The notes under the pieces were generated by a model. It ran no database searches and was not told the origin of the DNA. It saw only the letters and a list, made by a program, of their open reading frames with translations. Positions 6,096-60,616 of a stretch of 64,000 nucleotides of DNA are shown in pieces. Every line of letters begins with the position of its first letter. Position 1 is the stretch's first letter. The position numbers were made by a program, and so were the translations under genes. The stretch comes from an uncultured Actinomycetota bacterium. GTDB taxonomy: Bacteria > Actinomycetota > Actinomycetes > Propionibacteriales > Nocardioidaceae. The DNA lies in contig CAWHAU010000020.1 in the NCBI GenBank assembly GCA_963827435.1, forward strand, positions 89,999 to 153,998. The letters are read 5' to 3'.

Positions 6096-6781
6096 TCAGA
6101 GGTGGTTGCCGTAGCCCCAGGAGCCCGGGCCGCCCGAGTTCTGCGGGTTCAGCAGGGTCAGTGCAGCCGCGGTGAAGTAGCTCTTGCCATAGGGCAGGTA
6201 GGCCGCGCCGGCCTCCCAGTAGGGCAGCATCTGTCCGCCGACCTTCACCCGACGCAGGTCCGGGCGCTCGCCCCGCGCGATGCGGGCGGCGTCCTGCGCG
6301 CAGGCCGGCACGATCCGGGTGCCGTACGCGGGTGGGTTCCACGCGACGTCCACGGTCGCCGGGCCGTGCTGCGGGTTGAAGAAGCACGGCGTCCGGCGCT
6401 CGGGCAGCGGCTGGCCGGCAACCCGGGCCTGCACGCAGGCGAGCGCGTAGCGGCCCGCGGTGAGGATGTCGCTGACCCGGCTCACCTCCTCGGCGCTGCG
6501 CAGTGCGGGCACCGCGCGCTGCGCGGACTCGTAGGCGTCGAGCGCGGCCTGGTAGTCCAGCCGCGCCGCCTCGTCGAGAGGGTGGTCCGCCACCTCCGCG
6601 TCGAGGCGTTGGAGCTGTTCGCCGAGCACGGTGACGTCCTCGTCGGCGAGCGTGCGCGCTGTCTCCAGCTCCTGCGGCCTGCTCGAGTGCGAGCTCTCGC
6701 GCGTCGACGCCGTCCGCGCCAGCTGCGTCCGCCCAGCGCGCCGCCGCCGGCGGCCAGGGCCGCGATGATCAGCCACTCCAT
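6096..6781 (-). CDS. Conserved actinobacterial hypothetical protein with N-terminal membrane anchor, frame break near 6700
   Basis: MEWLIIAALAAGGG start joins frame 6096..7391 (ALDAYESA...PCFFNPQHGP...VPACAQD...PYWEAG...PYG..YF). Confidence 0.7.
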
Positions 6782-57402: not shown

Positions 57403-57779
57403 CCGCCACCGACCGGGCCCTCGAGCTCGTCCGCACCGCCGCCCAGGCCGCGTCGGACAAGCTCGCCGAGAACATCGTGGCCTTCGACGTGTCCGACCAG
57501 CTGGTCATCACCGACGCGTTCCTGCTGGCCTCCGCGCCCAACGACCGCCAGGTCAAGGCGATCGTCGACGCGATCGAGGACGGCCTGCGCGAGATCGGCG
57601 CCAAGCCCGTACGTCGCGAGGGGGAGCGCGACGGCCGGTGGGTGCTCATCGACTACGCCGACATCGTCGTGCACGTGCAGCACGAGGAGGAGCGGTCGTT
57701 CTACGCCCTCGAGCGGCTCTGGCGCGACTGCCCGCTGATCGCCCTGCCGGACACGGTCACCTCCGGCCGCGACCGGTGA
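57399..57779 (+). CDS. rsfS: Ribosome silencing factor
   Basis: [28 protein letters not shown] and [10 protein letters not shown] motifs. Confidence 0.95.
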
Positions 57780-58435
57780 TCTCCGGCGAGAGCCGGCGCC
57801 TGGTCCTGCTCCGGCACGGCCGCACCGCCTGGAACGACTCCGGGCGGGCCCAGGGCCACGCCGACATCGAGCTCGACGAGGTCGGCCACCGGCAGGCGGC
57901 CGCCGCCGCGCCCGCGCTCGCCGCGCTGCGGCCGAGCGCCCTGTGGACCTCCGACCTGGCGAGGGCCCGGCAGACCTGTGCGTACGTCGAGCGCGCCACC
58001 GGTCTCGCCGCCAAGGTCGACGAGCGGCTCCGGGAGTACGACGTCGGCGCCCGGCAGGGCCTGGACACCGCGCAGTTCCGCGAGCGCTTCCCCGAGGCAT
58101 TCGAGTCCTGGGCGTGTGGCGACGAGGAGCACCTGGTCCCCGGCGCCGAGTCGACGTCTGACGTCCTGCGCCGGATGGTGCCGGCGCTCCGCGAGTTCCT
58201 GGCATCCCTGGACGCAGGCGAGACCGGCATCGTGGTCACCCACGGCGCCTCGCTGAAGGACGCGATGTTCGACCTGCTCGGCTGGTCGCAGCAGCAGGAG
58301 CCGTCGCTGCGGGGCATGGACAACTGCGCATGGGCGGTCCTGGTCGAGCACCCCACCCTCGATCGGCTGCGGCTCGCGACGTACAACCAGCAGGTCACCG
58401 GCCCCGATTTCGCATCCGCGGAGGGCGTTGGATAA
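57776..58435 (+). CDS. Histidine phosphatase (phosphoglycerate mutase family, GpgP-like position)
   Basis: LLRHGRTAWN, QGHADIEL, SDLARA.QT, LRE, GAES and VTHG motifs. Confidence 0.9.
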   Translation: MISGESRRLVLLRHGRTAWNDSGRAQGHADIELDEVGHRQAAAAAPALAALRPSALWTSDLARARQTCAYVERATGLAAKVDERLREYDVGARQGLDTAQFRERFPEAFESWACGDEEHLVPGAESTSDVLRRMVPALREFLASLDAGETGIVVTHGASLKDAMFDLLGWSQQQEPSLRGMDNCAWAVLVEHPTLDRLRLATYNQQVTGPDFASAEGVG

Positions 58436-58464: not shown

Positions 58465-58540
58465 GGGGCTGTGGCGCAGCTGGTAGCGCACCTCCATGGC
58501 ATGGAGGGGGTCAGGGGTTCGAGTCCCCTCAGCTCCACCA
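58465..58540 (+). tRNA. tRNA-Ala(GGC)
   Basis: 76-nt cloverleaf with G3:U70, CCTCC-ATGGCAT-GGAGG anticodon arm and encoded CCA; TAAGAT -10 element at 58433-58438. Confidence 0.97.
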
Positions 58541-58979
58541 GATCGACGACAGGCCGGTTCCCGATGCTGGGGGCCGGCCTTCGTGCTGCGTGGGCGCAGC
58601 TGGTAGCGGCTCCGTCATCTCCGGCCATGGCATGGAGGGGGTCAGGGGTTCGAGTCCCCTCAGCTCCACCAGAAGAACGATCGACAGGCCGGTTCCCGAG
58701 GCGGGGGCCGGCCTTCGTGCTGCGTGGGCGCAGCTGGTAGCGGCTCCGTCATCTCCGGCCATGGCATGGAGGGGGTCAGGGGTTCGAGTCCCCTCAGCTC
58801 CACCAGATCGACACGGCCGGTTCCCGGGTTGGGGGCCGGCCTTCGTGCTGCGTGGGCGCAGCTGGTAGCGGCTCCGTCAGCTCCGGCCATGGCATGGAGG
58901 GGGTCAGGGGTTCGAGTCCCCTCAGCTCCACCAGATCGACACGGCCGGTTCCCGGGTCGGGGCCGGCCTCGCTGCGTGG
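58541..58979 (+). repeat. Tandem array of three tRNA-Ala-derived units plus a fourth hairpin
   Basis: The 47-nt tRNA 3' part is repeated exactly at 58625-58671, 58759-58805 and 58887-58933 (periods 131, 134, 128). Each copy is preceded by a GC hairpin and a D-arm remnant ggcgcagctggtagcg. Confidence 0.95.
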
Positions 58980-59241
58980 TGGATCCCGGTCCGGCTGGTC
59001 GAGCTTGTCGAGACACCCAGATCGGGCTCTGCGGAAGGCGGCCTCGACTGGCTCGACCCATGGTCGGTCACCGACGGGTCGCGCGGCTCTGGACGATCAG
59101 CGGTGTCTGCGGCCGCGGCGCTCTCGTCCGCGGGCAGAAGGTCTGGAAATTTCCGTTTACCGTCGAGGACGGAAAAGGTGCCCTACGCTGACCGTCGCCC
59201 GCCATCCTCGGCGGTCATCCACAAGCCTCTCGGGGGACCTC

Positions 59242-59832
59242 ATGACATCACGCCTGCGCCGCACATGTGCGGCAGCCATTCTCACCCTGCTTGCTGTCGG
59301 CCAGACCGGGCCGGCGAGCGCCCAGAGCCTGGTTGAGCGCGACGCCCACGCTGATGTTCGTTCGGCCCCCGTCGACGGAGACACGTCAGCCCCCGAGCCA
59401 ACCGTGACCGACGGCGACATCGAATCGTCGCTGCTCACCCACGGCCGTTACCGGATCGGGGTCCGCATCAAGTTCGCGGATCTGCAGAAGGCCGGGGACT
59501 ACCGGGGACATGTCGTCCAAGTGGTCACGAACGAAGGGGTGCACCGCGACGTCGTGCTGTCCGTGGGGCCGAACATGTGGCGCGGGATGTCCGAGATGGA
59601 CCGTCCCAGCGGTGCCAAGGTTCGGTGCGCGGTCCGGCACTCCATCGACTACACGAACCACGTCGTCACCGTCGGCTTCCCCCGCAGCTGCGTCAGCAAC
59701 CCCCGCTGGGTCCGGCTCGGGGTCGGCTCCTTCTCCGTGGCGGGCGAGACCGCCTACGCCGACGACGTTCTGCTCGCGAACAAGATCTACGACAACTCGC
59801 TCGCACTGTCCGCGAGGCTCAGGCGCGCCTGA
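59242..59832 (+). CDS. Secreted hypothetical protein
   Basis: Signal peptide MTSRLRRTCAAAILTLLAVGQTGPASA; beta-rich body with a Cys pair (VRCAVRHSIDY...FPRSCVSNPRWVR); less GC3-biased codon use than core genes. Confidence 0.75.
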   Translation: MTSRLRRTCAAAILTLLAVGQTGPASAQSLVERDAHADVRSAPVDGDTSAPEPTVTDGDIESSLLTHGRYRIGVRIKFADLQKAGDYRGHVVQVVTNEGVHRDVVLSVGPNMWRGMSEMDRPSGAKVRCAVRHSIDYTNHVVTVGFPRSCVSNPRWVRLGVGSFSVAGETAYADDVLLANKIYDNSLALSARLRRA

Positions 59833-60029
59833 GTGCTGCTCCGAAGCCCCGCCTGATGTCGTCGCGCTGACGGCGTGCGTGGCTGGCTGGCCTCCGTTGA
59901 GGTCGAGGCGGGGGCGTTTCCTCACCGTGACTCGGCACCGACGCGTCGAAGGCCGACAACCCGGGTGACGTGCTGGGGTGGAGGGTAGGTCGCCGCGGTG
60001 CGGGCCACACCCGGCGGCGCCACTCGCAC

Positions 60030-60097
60030 GTCAGGACGGCAGCAGCCCACCCAGATCGTGACAGCCCGGTTCCCACTCGGGCATCGGCCTTCGTGCT
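60030..60097 (+). repeat. Degenerate distal copy of the tRNA-Ala 3' end plus hairpin
   Basis: cagcccacccagatcgtgacagcccggttccc...tcggccttcgtgct aligns with cagctccaccagatcgacgacaggccggttccc...ccggccttcgtgct of the array. Confidence 0.6.
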
Positions 60098-60106
60098 CTC
60101 TGCCGA

Positions 60107-60616
60107 CTAGAACTGCTGCTGCGACGCGGTGTGCCCGGGGAGCTGGGCCAGCAGCTCGCGTCCGGCGGCGGCGTGCTTGTGCTCGACGAGCACCTCGTAG
60201 CGGGTCGCGACGATCCGGCTCACCGAGCTGAAGTCCCGCTGGCCGCGGGCGGCGGCGTACCCGACGAGCGCCCAGATGACGCCGAACAGCGCGCCGAACG
60301 CGACCGTCGACAGGATGATCGGCAGCGCATTGCCGGTGCCGAAGAAGGAGAAGATCAGGCCGATGAACAGGCCCATCCAGACACCGGAGAGCAGGCCGCC
60401 GATGGCGACCCGACCGGTGGTGAGCCGTCCGGTGACCCGCTCGACCTGCTTGAGCTCGGTGCCGACGATCATGCAGTTCTCGACCGGGAACTCGTGGTCG
60501 GAGAGGAAGTCGACGGCCCGCTGCGCCTGCTCGTACTTGTCGTAGACCCCCAGCGACTGCGGGAACTCCAGGGTGAGCCCGGACCGCAGTCCGCGGATGT
60601 TCTGCTGGCTGCTCAT
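60107..60616 (-). CDS. General stress protein (17M / YflT-like domain)
   Basis: SLGVYDKYEQAQRAVDFLSDHEFPVEN..IVGTELKQVERVTGRLT, two TM helices, then RDFSS...ATRYEVLVE. Confidence 0.82.
   Translation of the reverse strand: MSSQQNIRGLRSGLTLEFPQSLGVYDKYEQAQRAVDFLSDHEFPVENCMIVGTELKQVERVTGRLTTGRVAIGGLLSGVWMGLFIGLIFSFFGTGNALPIILSTVAFGALFGVIWALVGYAAARGQRDFSSVSRIVATRYEVLVEHKHAAAGRELLAQLPGHTASQQQF

What the first reader, a model, noticed from the sequence alone, without database searches (positions are those of the whole stretch)
58465..58979. Tandem array of tRNA-Ala-derived units with a perfect 3' half and a remodelled 5' half
Seen: three 128-134 bp units follow the intact tRNA-Ala(GGC). Each keeps tRNA positions 30-76 exactly (47 nt, from the anticodon-loop palindrome CCATG-G-CATGG through the T-arm and CCA) and a 16-nt D-arm piece. 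The 5' acceptor strand is replaced (cgtgctg instead of ggggctg), and an insertion (gctccgtcatctccgg) breaks the anticodon stem. Established: tyrosine-integrase elements often cross over in a tRNA anticodon loop and duplicate the 3' half, and E. coli tyrT has downstream repeats that include the tRNA 3' end. Inference: zero divergence in the 47-nt block beside a decayed 5' half fits (a) a stack of att sites or empty mini-cassettes, (b) decoy integration targets, or (c) tRNA-like processing units or decoy RNAs. Recent amplification after the 5' half decayed is the mundane alternative. No integrase is present in the window, so any recombinase would act in trans.
Basis: partly seen in the sequence, partly recalled or inferred. 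Interest (0 to 1): 0.8.

Follow-up and report, generated by a model that had tools for sequence, protein, structure and literature searches.

The report
Repeated dead copies behind tRNA-Ala gene
Behind the only alanine tRNA(GGC) gene of this Nocardioides-type bacterium sit three tandem non-working copies of that gene, all with the same old internal insertion; the same arrangement recurs across the family and is most likely kept uniform by recombination with the working gene, not by mobile-element integration.

Summary
tRNA-Ala(GGC) lies at 58465-58540. Three units of 131/134/128 bp and a partial fourth follow, and each carries an exact copy of tRNA positions 30-76.

The array is not private or recent. 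Insert-bearing units occur in 10 of 50 congeners, in three separate clades. They also occur in at least two other genera of the family, giving 25 genomes in all. They always lie within 250 nt of the working gene, with 1-7 copies.

The unit is a whole tRNA-Ala paralogue with three changes: C25G, an insertion of about 11 nt after the D stem, and a GG bulge between positions 29 and 30. That bulge is why exact identity starts at position 30. In every genome the unit's 3' part, often its trailer, and the D-loop variant match that genome's own tRNA. This indicates concerted evolution.

About a third of units carry disruptive lesions, and the closest relative's units are decayed. No integrase, attP-type copy or phage/plasmid copy of the unit was found. 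However, a real integrase element in the family uses the same 46-nt block as its att core.

Best reading: a recombination-maintained pseudogene array (about 0.5). A selected tRNA-like module (about 0.25) and an att/CIME-type origin (about 0.15) stay open. Read and RNA data could not be checked.

The parts
58465..58540 (+). Working tRNA-Ala(GGC), called T0 here. It is the only GGC isoacceptor gene in the assembly. Its anticodon arm CCTCCATG-G-CATGGAGG is a perfect 8-1-8 palindrome.
   Evidence: ARAGORN on the window and on the whole genome (49 tRNAs; Ala genes are CGC, TGC and GGC). Cloverleaf fold of -35.5 kcal/mol.
58552..58579 (+). Trailer hairpin 1 (GGCCGGTTCCC-loop-GGGGGCCGGCC), the likely terminator or processing hairpin of the tRNA. 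It is copied in every repeat.
   Evidence: Fold -30 kcal/mol, z = -3.1 against shuffles. The consensus terminator scan finds no U-tract terminator. Array-free relatives have similar hairpins behind the same tRNA.
58582..58671 (+). Unit 1. It consists of a degenerate 5' acceptor strand (CGTGCTG), the D arm, the insert (58609-58624) and exact tRNA positions 30-76 (58625-58671).
   Evidence: ARAGORN does not call it. Its fold is no better than shuffles, z = +0.2.
58687..58713 (+). Trailer hairpin 2. The stems are the same; the loop and the upstream linker differ.
58716..58805 (+). Unit 2, whose body is identical to that of unit 1.
58815..58841 (+). Trailer hairpin 3.
58844..58933 (+). Unit 3, with one substitution in the insert (T to G at 58880).
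58934..58979 (+). Partial fourth repeat. It holds the linker, hairpin 4 (58943-58968, one G shorter) and the start of the 5' remnant. The array ends here.
58980..60042 (+). A 1.06-kb segment absent from the closest relatives at this locus. It holds a 196-aa secreted-protein ORF (59242-59832) with no Pfam match. The ORF belongs to a multi-copy family in the genus.
   Evidence: Flank comparison with G019, G007 and others. ORFs. Pfam. Paralogues at many loci, best 52% identity.
60043..60097 (+). Decayed copy of the tRNA 3' end plus linker plus hairpin. It abuts the conserved downstream gene (YflT-domain protein, 60107-60616, minus strand) and is probably the oldest trailer copy.
   Evidence: Pfam YflT. 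G019 has the same arrangement with a different 0.8-kb filler.

Best explanation
The array is a tandem set of non-functional tRNA-Ala(GGC) pseudogenes.

Inferred origin: an old duplication of the tRNA with its trailer produced a paralogue. That paralogue acquired C25G, an insertion of about 11 nt between the D stem and the anticodon stem, and a GG bulge between positions 29 and 30.

Inferred maintenance: RecA-type unequal crossing-over and gene conversion between the working gene and the units, and among the units, have since done three things.
- They change copy number (0 to 7).
- They keep the uninterrupted homology block, positions 30-76 and often the trailer, identical to the working gene.
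- They occasionally delete the array.

The working gene's 5' half is protected by selection, because it is the only GGC isoacceptor gene. The exact 47-mer therefore marks where homology with the master gene is interrupted, not a recombinase cut site.

Shown: the anatomy, the distribution, the co-variation with the master gene, and the lesions. Inferred: the recombination mechanism and the lack of function.
For: 1. The same insert-bearing unit occurs in 10 of 50 congeners. These form three separate, wholly array-bearing clades on a flank tree. It also occurs in other genera of the family (G227, G401, G276, G413, G232, G279 and seven further genomes: Nocardioides sp. Root1257, N. hankookensis and five MAGs). 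Copy number is 1-7.
2. In all 25 genomes the unit carries its own tRNA's version of the 3' anticodon-stem strand (GGAGG, GCAAG, GCAGG or GCAGA) and T loop. In L154 it carries the variant acceptor strand CACCTCC. Trailers and the D-loop C/T variant usually match as well.
3. Units within a genome are near-identical, while units in different genomes differ.
4. Decay is common. G019 (95% flank identity) has deletions through the T arm. G016, G001, G031, G227, G401 and N. hankookensis carry indels or stem-breaking changes, roughly a third of units overall.
5. The units fail as tRNAs. ARAGORN calls none, G3:U70 is lost in this genome, and the fold is no better than shuffles. RNAalifold gives only -18 kcal/mol and a single double-sided covariation, which is tied to the working gene.
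6. The locus is prone to slippage-type duplications at other scales: L106 has a 7x 16-nt repeat of the tRNA end, and G001, G279 and G387 show further examples.
7. In close pairs the insert changes about as fast as the spacers (Root1257 versus N. hankookensis 2/18; G000 versus G007 4/17).
Against: 1. The insert keeps its length and several invariant positions across genera: G33 and C34 in 26/26, C40 and G49 in 25/26. Mean pairwise identity is 0.58, against 0.34 for the 5' remnant. A purely neutral relic of family age should be scrambled.
2. No unit among about 60 has lost the insert, although conversion from the working gene seems to reach both sides of it.
3. Unit bodies and hairpin stems are far more uniform than linkers and loops in this genome. 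Close relatives G227 and G401 share bodies but have unrelated spacers.
4. The identity boundary coincides with the att boundary of a real integrase element.
Confidence: 0.5

Rival explanations
1. The unit body (D arm, insert, positions 30-76) is a selected module. On this reading it is transcribed as the 3' trailer of the tRNA-Ala transcript and acts as a tRNA-like RNA with a disabled or masked anticodon. It could be a decoy or sponge for an enzyme or toxin that recognises the tRNA elbow or the 3' end, or a DNA-level protein-binding or recombination module.
For: - The architecture is conserved family-wide, with invariant insert positions.
- The insert core G-Y-C-R can pair with U33-G34-G35-C36 in 22-26 of 26 variants. 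All changes at these positions are transitions that keep the pairing, and G232 has a perfect 8-bp helix.
- The bulged anticodon stem is 80% paired, with some double-sided changes.
- Unit bodies and hairpin stems are conserved while linkers, loops and spacers turn over.
- In G279, G413 and Root1257 a terminator-like hairpin follows the array and is absent from the inner spacers of G279 and G413, so their units are probably co-transcribed with the tRNA.
Against: - The distribution is patchy: 10 of 50 in the genus and a few percent of the family sample.
- About a third of units carry lesions, and the units are fully decayed in the closest relative.
- The 5' end is not conserved and no acceptor stem forms.
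- Pairing evidence is one-sided only, because the partner strand is fixed by the working gene.
- Folds are no better than shuffles.
- No conserved downstream gene exists that the module could regulate.
- No RNA data were available.
Confidence: 0.25
2. The units descend from the attachment site of an integrative element that carried a whole pseudo-tRNA as its attP, and they multiply or exchange by site-specific recombination in trans. This would be CIME-like accretion with empty mini-cassettes, the first reader's option (a).
For: - G217's integrase element has a repeat starting at the same position 30.
- In this genome the islet at tRNA-Ala(CGC) shows that elements duplicate the 3' half together with a look-alike trailer hairpin.
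- Different fillers of about 1 kb lie between the array and a distal trailer relic in G000 and G019, which share 95% flank identity.
- The three insert types cut across genera, for example GCGGTGTC in G001 and in G227/G401.
Against: - No integrase lies on the contig and the genome has no close homologue of the G217 enzyme.
- The unit is never found apart from a working tRNA-Ala(GGC), and never in a phage, plasmid or viral contig.
- G217's own arm next to the repeat is unrelated to the unit's 5' half.
- In G016 the ancestral-looking trailer lies directly after the working gene, not after the last unit.
- Other tRNAs of this genome show single fragments kilobases away, never short arrays.
Confidence: 0.15
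3. The copy number is an assembly artefact, for example a collapsed or expanded repeat.
For: Reads could not be examined. The Root1257 array contains N's.
Against: The repeats differ by indels and loop sequences. Homologous arrays occur in 24 other assemblies, some on contigs of 1-2 Mb.
Confidence: 0.02

Closest known systems
Distal repeats of the E. coli tyrT operon (rtT / RtT RNA, Rfam RF00391); comparison from my own knowledge
   Same: Tandem repeats lie directly behind a tRNA gene. Each contains the tRNA's 3' end, is probably co-transcribed with the tRNA, has no clear function, and is shaped by unequal recombination.
   Different: The tyrT repeats hold only about 19 nt of the tRNA end. Here the unit is a nearly whole tRNA paralogue with a diagnostic insertion. 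No RtT hit appeared in the Rfam scan. The phylum and the tRNA are different.
tRNA gene fragments left by tyrosine-integrase elements (Islander, PMC4383910; van der Gulik et al. 2023, PMC9897764)
   Same: The repeat is a direct copy of the tRNA from the anticodon region to the 3' end. The same block is used by a real element in the family (G217).
   Different: No integrase and no kilobase-scale foreign DNA lie between the copies. The sequence 5' of the block is tRNA-derived. The repeats have a short period and vary in copy number.
Concerted evolution of tandem gene copies with a selected master copy (as in rRNA or tRNA gene arrays); comparison from my own knowledge
   Same: Copies are uniform within a genome and differ between genomes. 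They co-vary with the functional copy, and the array expands, contracts and is lost.
   Different: Here only part of each copy is homologous to the master copy, and the copies are pseudogenes.
Earlier scan note e1-5080142: dead tRNA-Glu copies with terminators in Desulfobacterales
   Same: Truncated, non-decoding tRNA copies lie behind the working gene, each with a terminator hairpin, and come and go among relatives.
   Different: The phylum and the tRNA are different. I did not check that case myself.

Membership tests
Functional tRNA gene | Cloverleaf with a 7-bp acceptor stem and a 5-bp anticodon stem, detectable by a tRNA finder | tested here: not met
   ARAGORN calls only 58465-58540. In the units, pairs 1:72 and 3:70 are broken and the anticodon stem is interrupted.
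Functional tRNA gene | The G3:U70 identity pair for AlaRS | tested here: not met
   The units have U3 opposite U70 (CGTGCTG against CAGCTCC). A few relatives (L115, G276) keep it.
att-site fragment of a tRNA-targeting integrase element | A direct repeat of the tRNA running from the anticodon or T loop to the 3' end | tested here: met
   The exact 47-mer occurs four times. The boundary is the same as in G217's attR.
att-site fragment of a tRNA-targeting integrase element | An integrase gene and element DNA between the full gene and the fragment | tested here: not met
   Only 43-46 bp of trailer separate the copies. No integrase hit lies on contig C20.
att-site fragment of a tRNA-targeting integrase element | Sequence 5' of the repeat comes from the element arm and is unrelated to the tRNA | tested here: not met
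   The 5' part is the tRNA's own D arm and acceptor remnant.
RtT RNA (RF00391) / tyrT repeats | A match to the Rfam covariance model | tested here: not met
   The Rfam scan with E up to 10 lists no RtT. It gives only sub-threshold tmRNA and mascRNA hits caused by the T arm.
tmRNA / permuted tmRNA | A score at or above the Rfam gathering score, and a tag-peptide reading frame | tested here: not met
   Scores of 25-39 bits against a gathering score of 47. ARAGORN finds no tmRNA. The GGGGCCG pairing suggested by the model is absent in relatives without the hairpin.
Integron or CIME-type cassette array | A recombinase, plus cassettes bounded by recombination sites and exchanged among relatives | tested here: inconclusive
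   No recombinase was found and the units carry no cargo. One filler of about 1 kb does differ between G000 and G019 at the array's distal end.

The most novel reading that the evidence does not exclude
The insert-bearing unit is a selected, family-wide tRNA-like module. It would be transcribed behind tRNA-Ala(GGC) and released as an RNA that ends like the tRNA. This RNA would lack a 5' acceptor strand, and its anticodon would be masked by an internal G-Y-C-R pseudo-codon. It could act as a decoy for a tRNA-binding enzyme or toxin, or as portable homology for integrase-independent insertion behind the tRNA.
Probability: 0.2. Interest if true: 0.75.

Novelty: new variant of a known kind. Interest (0 to 1): 0.45.

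Why it matters
If the main reading holds, this is a clean natural example of concerted evolution between an essential single-copy tRNA gene and its dead tandem copies. It shows that an exact tRNA 3' half beside a changed 5' half need not be an integrase scar, which matters for tools that map genomic islands by such repeats.

It also multiplies the number of potential attB-like targets behind a tRNA that real elements in the family use.

If the units turn out to be selected, they would be an undescribed tRNA-like RNA or DNA module in Nocardioidaceae. Two cultured carriers, Nocardioides sp. Root1257 and N. hankookensis, make this testable.

Tried and rejected
- The Rfam tmRNA and permuted-tmRNA alignments pair GGGGCCG of the hairpin with the 3' acceptor strand. 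I rejected this: the scores are below threshold and the pairing is absent in relatives whose spacers lack the hairpin.
- My first family-wide pattern was mis-specified (an extra base) and hit helicase genes only, so it was discarded.
- Searches for the unit in phages, plasmids and viral contigs returned only ordinary tRNA-Ala 3' ends or chance matches.
- A search for a cognate integrase in the genome found none close: best 25-27% identity, next to tRNA-Thr.
- I rejected the idea that the units are aminoacylatable non-ribosomal tRNAs, because the 5' acceptor strand is not conserved.
- A pseudoknot combining the bulged stem with insert-loop pairing was judged sterically unlikely. This is inference only.
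- The 1.06-kb filler as a mobile cassette is not supported. Its ORF belongs to a multi-copy family scattered over many loci.
- Literature searches found no description of such arrays. One query failed on syntax.

Full report
**1. Observation**

ARAGORN finds one tRNA-Ala(GGC) at 58465-58540 and calls nothing downstream. Tandem Repeats Finder reports a 128-bp period, 3.7 copies and score 817 over 58494-58969. The 47-mer CCATGGCATGGAGGGGGTCAGGGGTTCGAGTCCCCTCAGCTCCACCA (tRNA positions 30-76) is exact at 58494, 58625, 58759 and 58887, and occurs nowhere else in the 4.57-Mb assembly.

Each repeat has four parts:
- the 47-mer;
- a variable linker;
- a strong GC hairpin (-30 kcal/mol, z = -3.1);
- a remodelled 5' half, CGTGCTG-CGTGG-GCGCAGCTGGTAGCG-GCTCCGTCATCTCCGG.

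One refinement applies. The three units are near-identical over the whole tRNA-like body and the hairpin stems. One of 114 such columns varies, against about 13 of 20 columns in the linker and loop.

**2. Context**

- Upstream lies a histidine-phosphatase-family gene (57638-58435).
- After the partial fourth repeat comes a 1.06-kb segment with one secreted-protein ORF (59242-59832). The ORF has no Pfam match, and its paralogues are scattered over the genus.
- A decayed copy of the tRNA end, linker and hairpin follows at 60043-60097. It abuts a conserved YflT-domain gene on the minus strand.
- Flank comparison shows that G019 (95% identity) and G007 (89%) share both flanks but not this filler. 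G019 has a different 0.8-kb filler in front of the same kind of distal hairpin.

**3. The array is not private**

A search of 60 relatives found multiple insert-bearing copies in several congeners. A pattern search of all 50 genomes held for the genus found them in nine, and G334 adds a tenth. On a tree of the 1.2 kb upstream, the eight carriers among its 29 genomes (G319 and G334 were not included) fall into three well-supported clades: (G000, G019, G007), (G016, G036) and (G017, (G031, G001)). Each clade is wholly array-bearing and is separated from the others by array-free genomes.

A family-wide sample of 401 genomes showed tandem copies in other genera as well: G227 (6 units), G276 (4), G401 (3), G413 (2), G232 (1) and G279 (2). 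A pattern scan of one genome for each of 185,579 species found real units only in Nocardioides isolates (sp. Root1257, N. hankookensis) and in uncultured Actinomycetota MAGs. Every unit lay within 250 nt of a working tRNA-Ala(GGC). In total 25 genomes carry arrays of 1-7 units.

**4. What the unit is**

Aligning 26 unit variants (A1) shows that the unit is a whole tRNA-Ala paralogue, not a 3' half fused to foreign DNA. Its D arm is 90% identical across lineages. The base after it is always G (C25G), followed by an invariant C. An insertion of about 11 nt follows, with consensus CTCYGYCRWT. Then comes the 5' strand of the anticodon stem, with a GG bulge between positions 29 and 30 (for example CCT-GG-CC or CCT-GG-GC). 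The bulge is why exact identity with the working gene begins at position 30.

The 5' acceptor strand is scrambled in most lineages (mean pairwise identity 0.34). It is nearly intact in L115, G276 and G007.

**5. Concerted evolution**

The working gene's anticodon stem differs among lineages (CCTCC/GGAGG, CTTGC/GCAAG, CCTGC/GCAGG, TCTGC/GCAGA). In all 25 genomes the units carry their own gene's 3' strand. They also carry its T-loop variant and, in L154, its variant acceptor strand CACCTCC. In most genomes they share the species-specific trailer and the D-loop C/T variant too. Units within a genome are almost identical, while units in different genomes differ.

This is the signature of unequal crossing-over and gene conversion with the working gene as master copy. 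The same process explains the variable copy number and the easy loss of the array.

Higher-order repeats show that mutated units are propagated by duplication. In G401 two unit types alternate. In G001 two spacer types occur in the order 1-2-1-1. In G227 the five inner units share two changes that the last unit lacks.

**6. Signs of decay**

- In G019, the closest relative, the units have lost most of the T arm.
- G016 units 2-4, G001 units 2 and 4, G031 units 1 and 3, one G227 unit and the N. hankookensis unit carry indels in the T arm, variable region or acceptor strand.
- The G401 and G227 units carry stem-weakening transitions.
- In this genome the units lack G3:U70 and a 1:72 pair.
- They fold no better than shuffled sequence (z = +0.2).
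- RNAalifold on A1 gives only -18 kcal/mol. Its single double-sided covariation is the 30:40 pair, which is dictated by the working gene.

**7. The integrase idea**

In G217 a 405-aa tyrosine integrase (PF00589, PF14659) lies directly behind this tRNA, with a TrwC relaxase further on. A second copy of CCATGG...CTCCACC lies 10.2 kb away, and its identity starts at the same position 30. Many Mycobacterium, Gordonia and Tsukamurella phages carry tRNA-Ala 3' segments.

This genome also shows the classic footprint at seven other tRNAs: a single fragment, kilobases away. One is tRNA-Ala(CGC), with a truncated integrase between the gene and a fragment that includes a look-alike trailer hairpin.

The array differs from that footprint in every other respect:
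- it has no integrase;
- it has no foreign DNA between copies;
- its left arm is tRNA-derived;
- the unit was never found apart from the working gene, nor in a phage, plasmid or viral contig.

G217's own arm next to the repeat is unrelated to the unit. I therefore rate an att-stack or CIME-like origin at about 0.15.

Position 29/30 is also a breakpoint of an unrelated promoter-plus-5'-half duplication in G387. The anticodon arm is a perfect 8-1-8 palindrome. By inference, this suggests a fragile or template-switch-prone spot that both integrases and replication errors would favour.

**8. What the neutral reading does not explain**

- The insert keeps its length and several invariant positions across genera. 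Its mean identity is 0.58, against 0.34 for the 5' remnant.
- Its core G-Y-C-R is complementary to U33-G34-G35-C36 in 22-26 of 26 variants. Only pairing-preserving transitions occur there, and G232 forms a perfect 8-bp helix.
- No unit has lost the insert.
- Bodies and hairpin stems stay uniform while linkers, loops and even whole spacers turn over. G227 and G401 share bodies but have unrelated spacers.
- In G279, G413 and Root1257 a terminator-like hairpin follows the array, and G279 and G413 have none in their inner spacers. Their units are therefore probably transcribed as the tRNA's trailer.

Against selection:
- In close pairs the insert changes about as fast as the spacers (Root1257 versus N. 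hankookensis 2/18; G000 versus G007 4/17).
- The pairing evidence is one-sided.
- The distribution is patchy.

I give a selected module about 0.25.

**9. Comparison and verdict**

The nearest described analogue is the repeat region behind E. coli tyrT (rtT). No Rfam RtT hit was found, and the unit here is a nearly whole tRNA paralogue. An earlier scan note describes dead tRNA-Glu copies with terminators in Desulfobacterales; I did not check it. Full-text searches found no description of this Nocardioidaceae arrangement.

I class the array as a new variant of a known kind: tRNA-derived tandem repeats under concerted evolution. It is of moderate interest. A minority chance remains that it is a selected tRNA-like module.

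Noticed in passing
window 58980-60097: A 1.06-kb filler with a secreted-protein ORF (59242-59832) lies between the array and a decayed tRNA-end/hairpin relic (60043-60097). The 95%-identical relative G019 has a different 0.8-kb filler at the same place, part of which is 89% identical to G000 contig C15:19709-19940.
   Followed up: partly
window 58997-59014; also G000 C3:390934, C13:90366 and 90478, C15:57772: The short motif (G)GTCGAGCTTGTCGAGA(C) is dispersed over the genome, usually inside a small hairpin (GGTGGTC...GACCACC). The same motif lies directly behind the tRNA-Ala(GGC) of G016. It may be a small repeat family.
   Followed up: partly
G000 contig C2:62553-65461 (locus L167): tRNA-Ala(CGC) is followed 2.8 kb downstream by a copy of its 3' half plus a look-alike trailer hairpin, with a truncated tyrosine integrase (272 aa, PF00589) between them. 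A second integrase fragment, 72% identical, lies at C2:65700-66071. This is a decaying integrative islet.
   Followed up: partly
G000 genome: C2 tRNA-Arg(CCT), C3 tRNA-Thr(CGT), C17 tRNA-Leu(CAG), C18 tRNA-Phe, C20 tRNA-Lys(CTT) and tRNA-Met: Six further tRNAs have a single displaced 3' fragment 3-37 kb away or on another contig. These are probable island boundaries. An integrase lies next to tRNA-Thr at C3:326186-327181.
   Followed up: no
L054 (G217:C2:430000-442500): An intact-looking 10.2-kb integrative mobilisable element sits at tRNA-Ala(GGC). It has a tyrosine integrase, a TrwC relaxase fragment and a 46-nt att repeat.
   Followed up: partly
L163 (G387:C9, about 84300-84520): A tandem duplication covers the tRNA-Ala(GGC) promoter plus tRNA positions 1-29, upstream of an intact gene of the CCTGC type. 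The breakpoint is again at position 29/30.
   Followed up: no
L106 (minus strand, about 6320-6440): A 16-nt unit made of the tRNA's last 7 nt plus trailer (TCCACCAGGTTGTTCG) is repeated about seven times between the tRNA and its single unit.
   Followed up: no
L053 (G194:C21:61900-64100): A 1,059-bp segmental duplication gives two full tRNA-Ala(GGC) copies with identical promoters. They flank an ORF of unidentified function.
   Followed up: no
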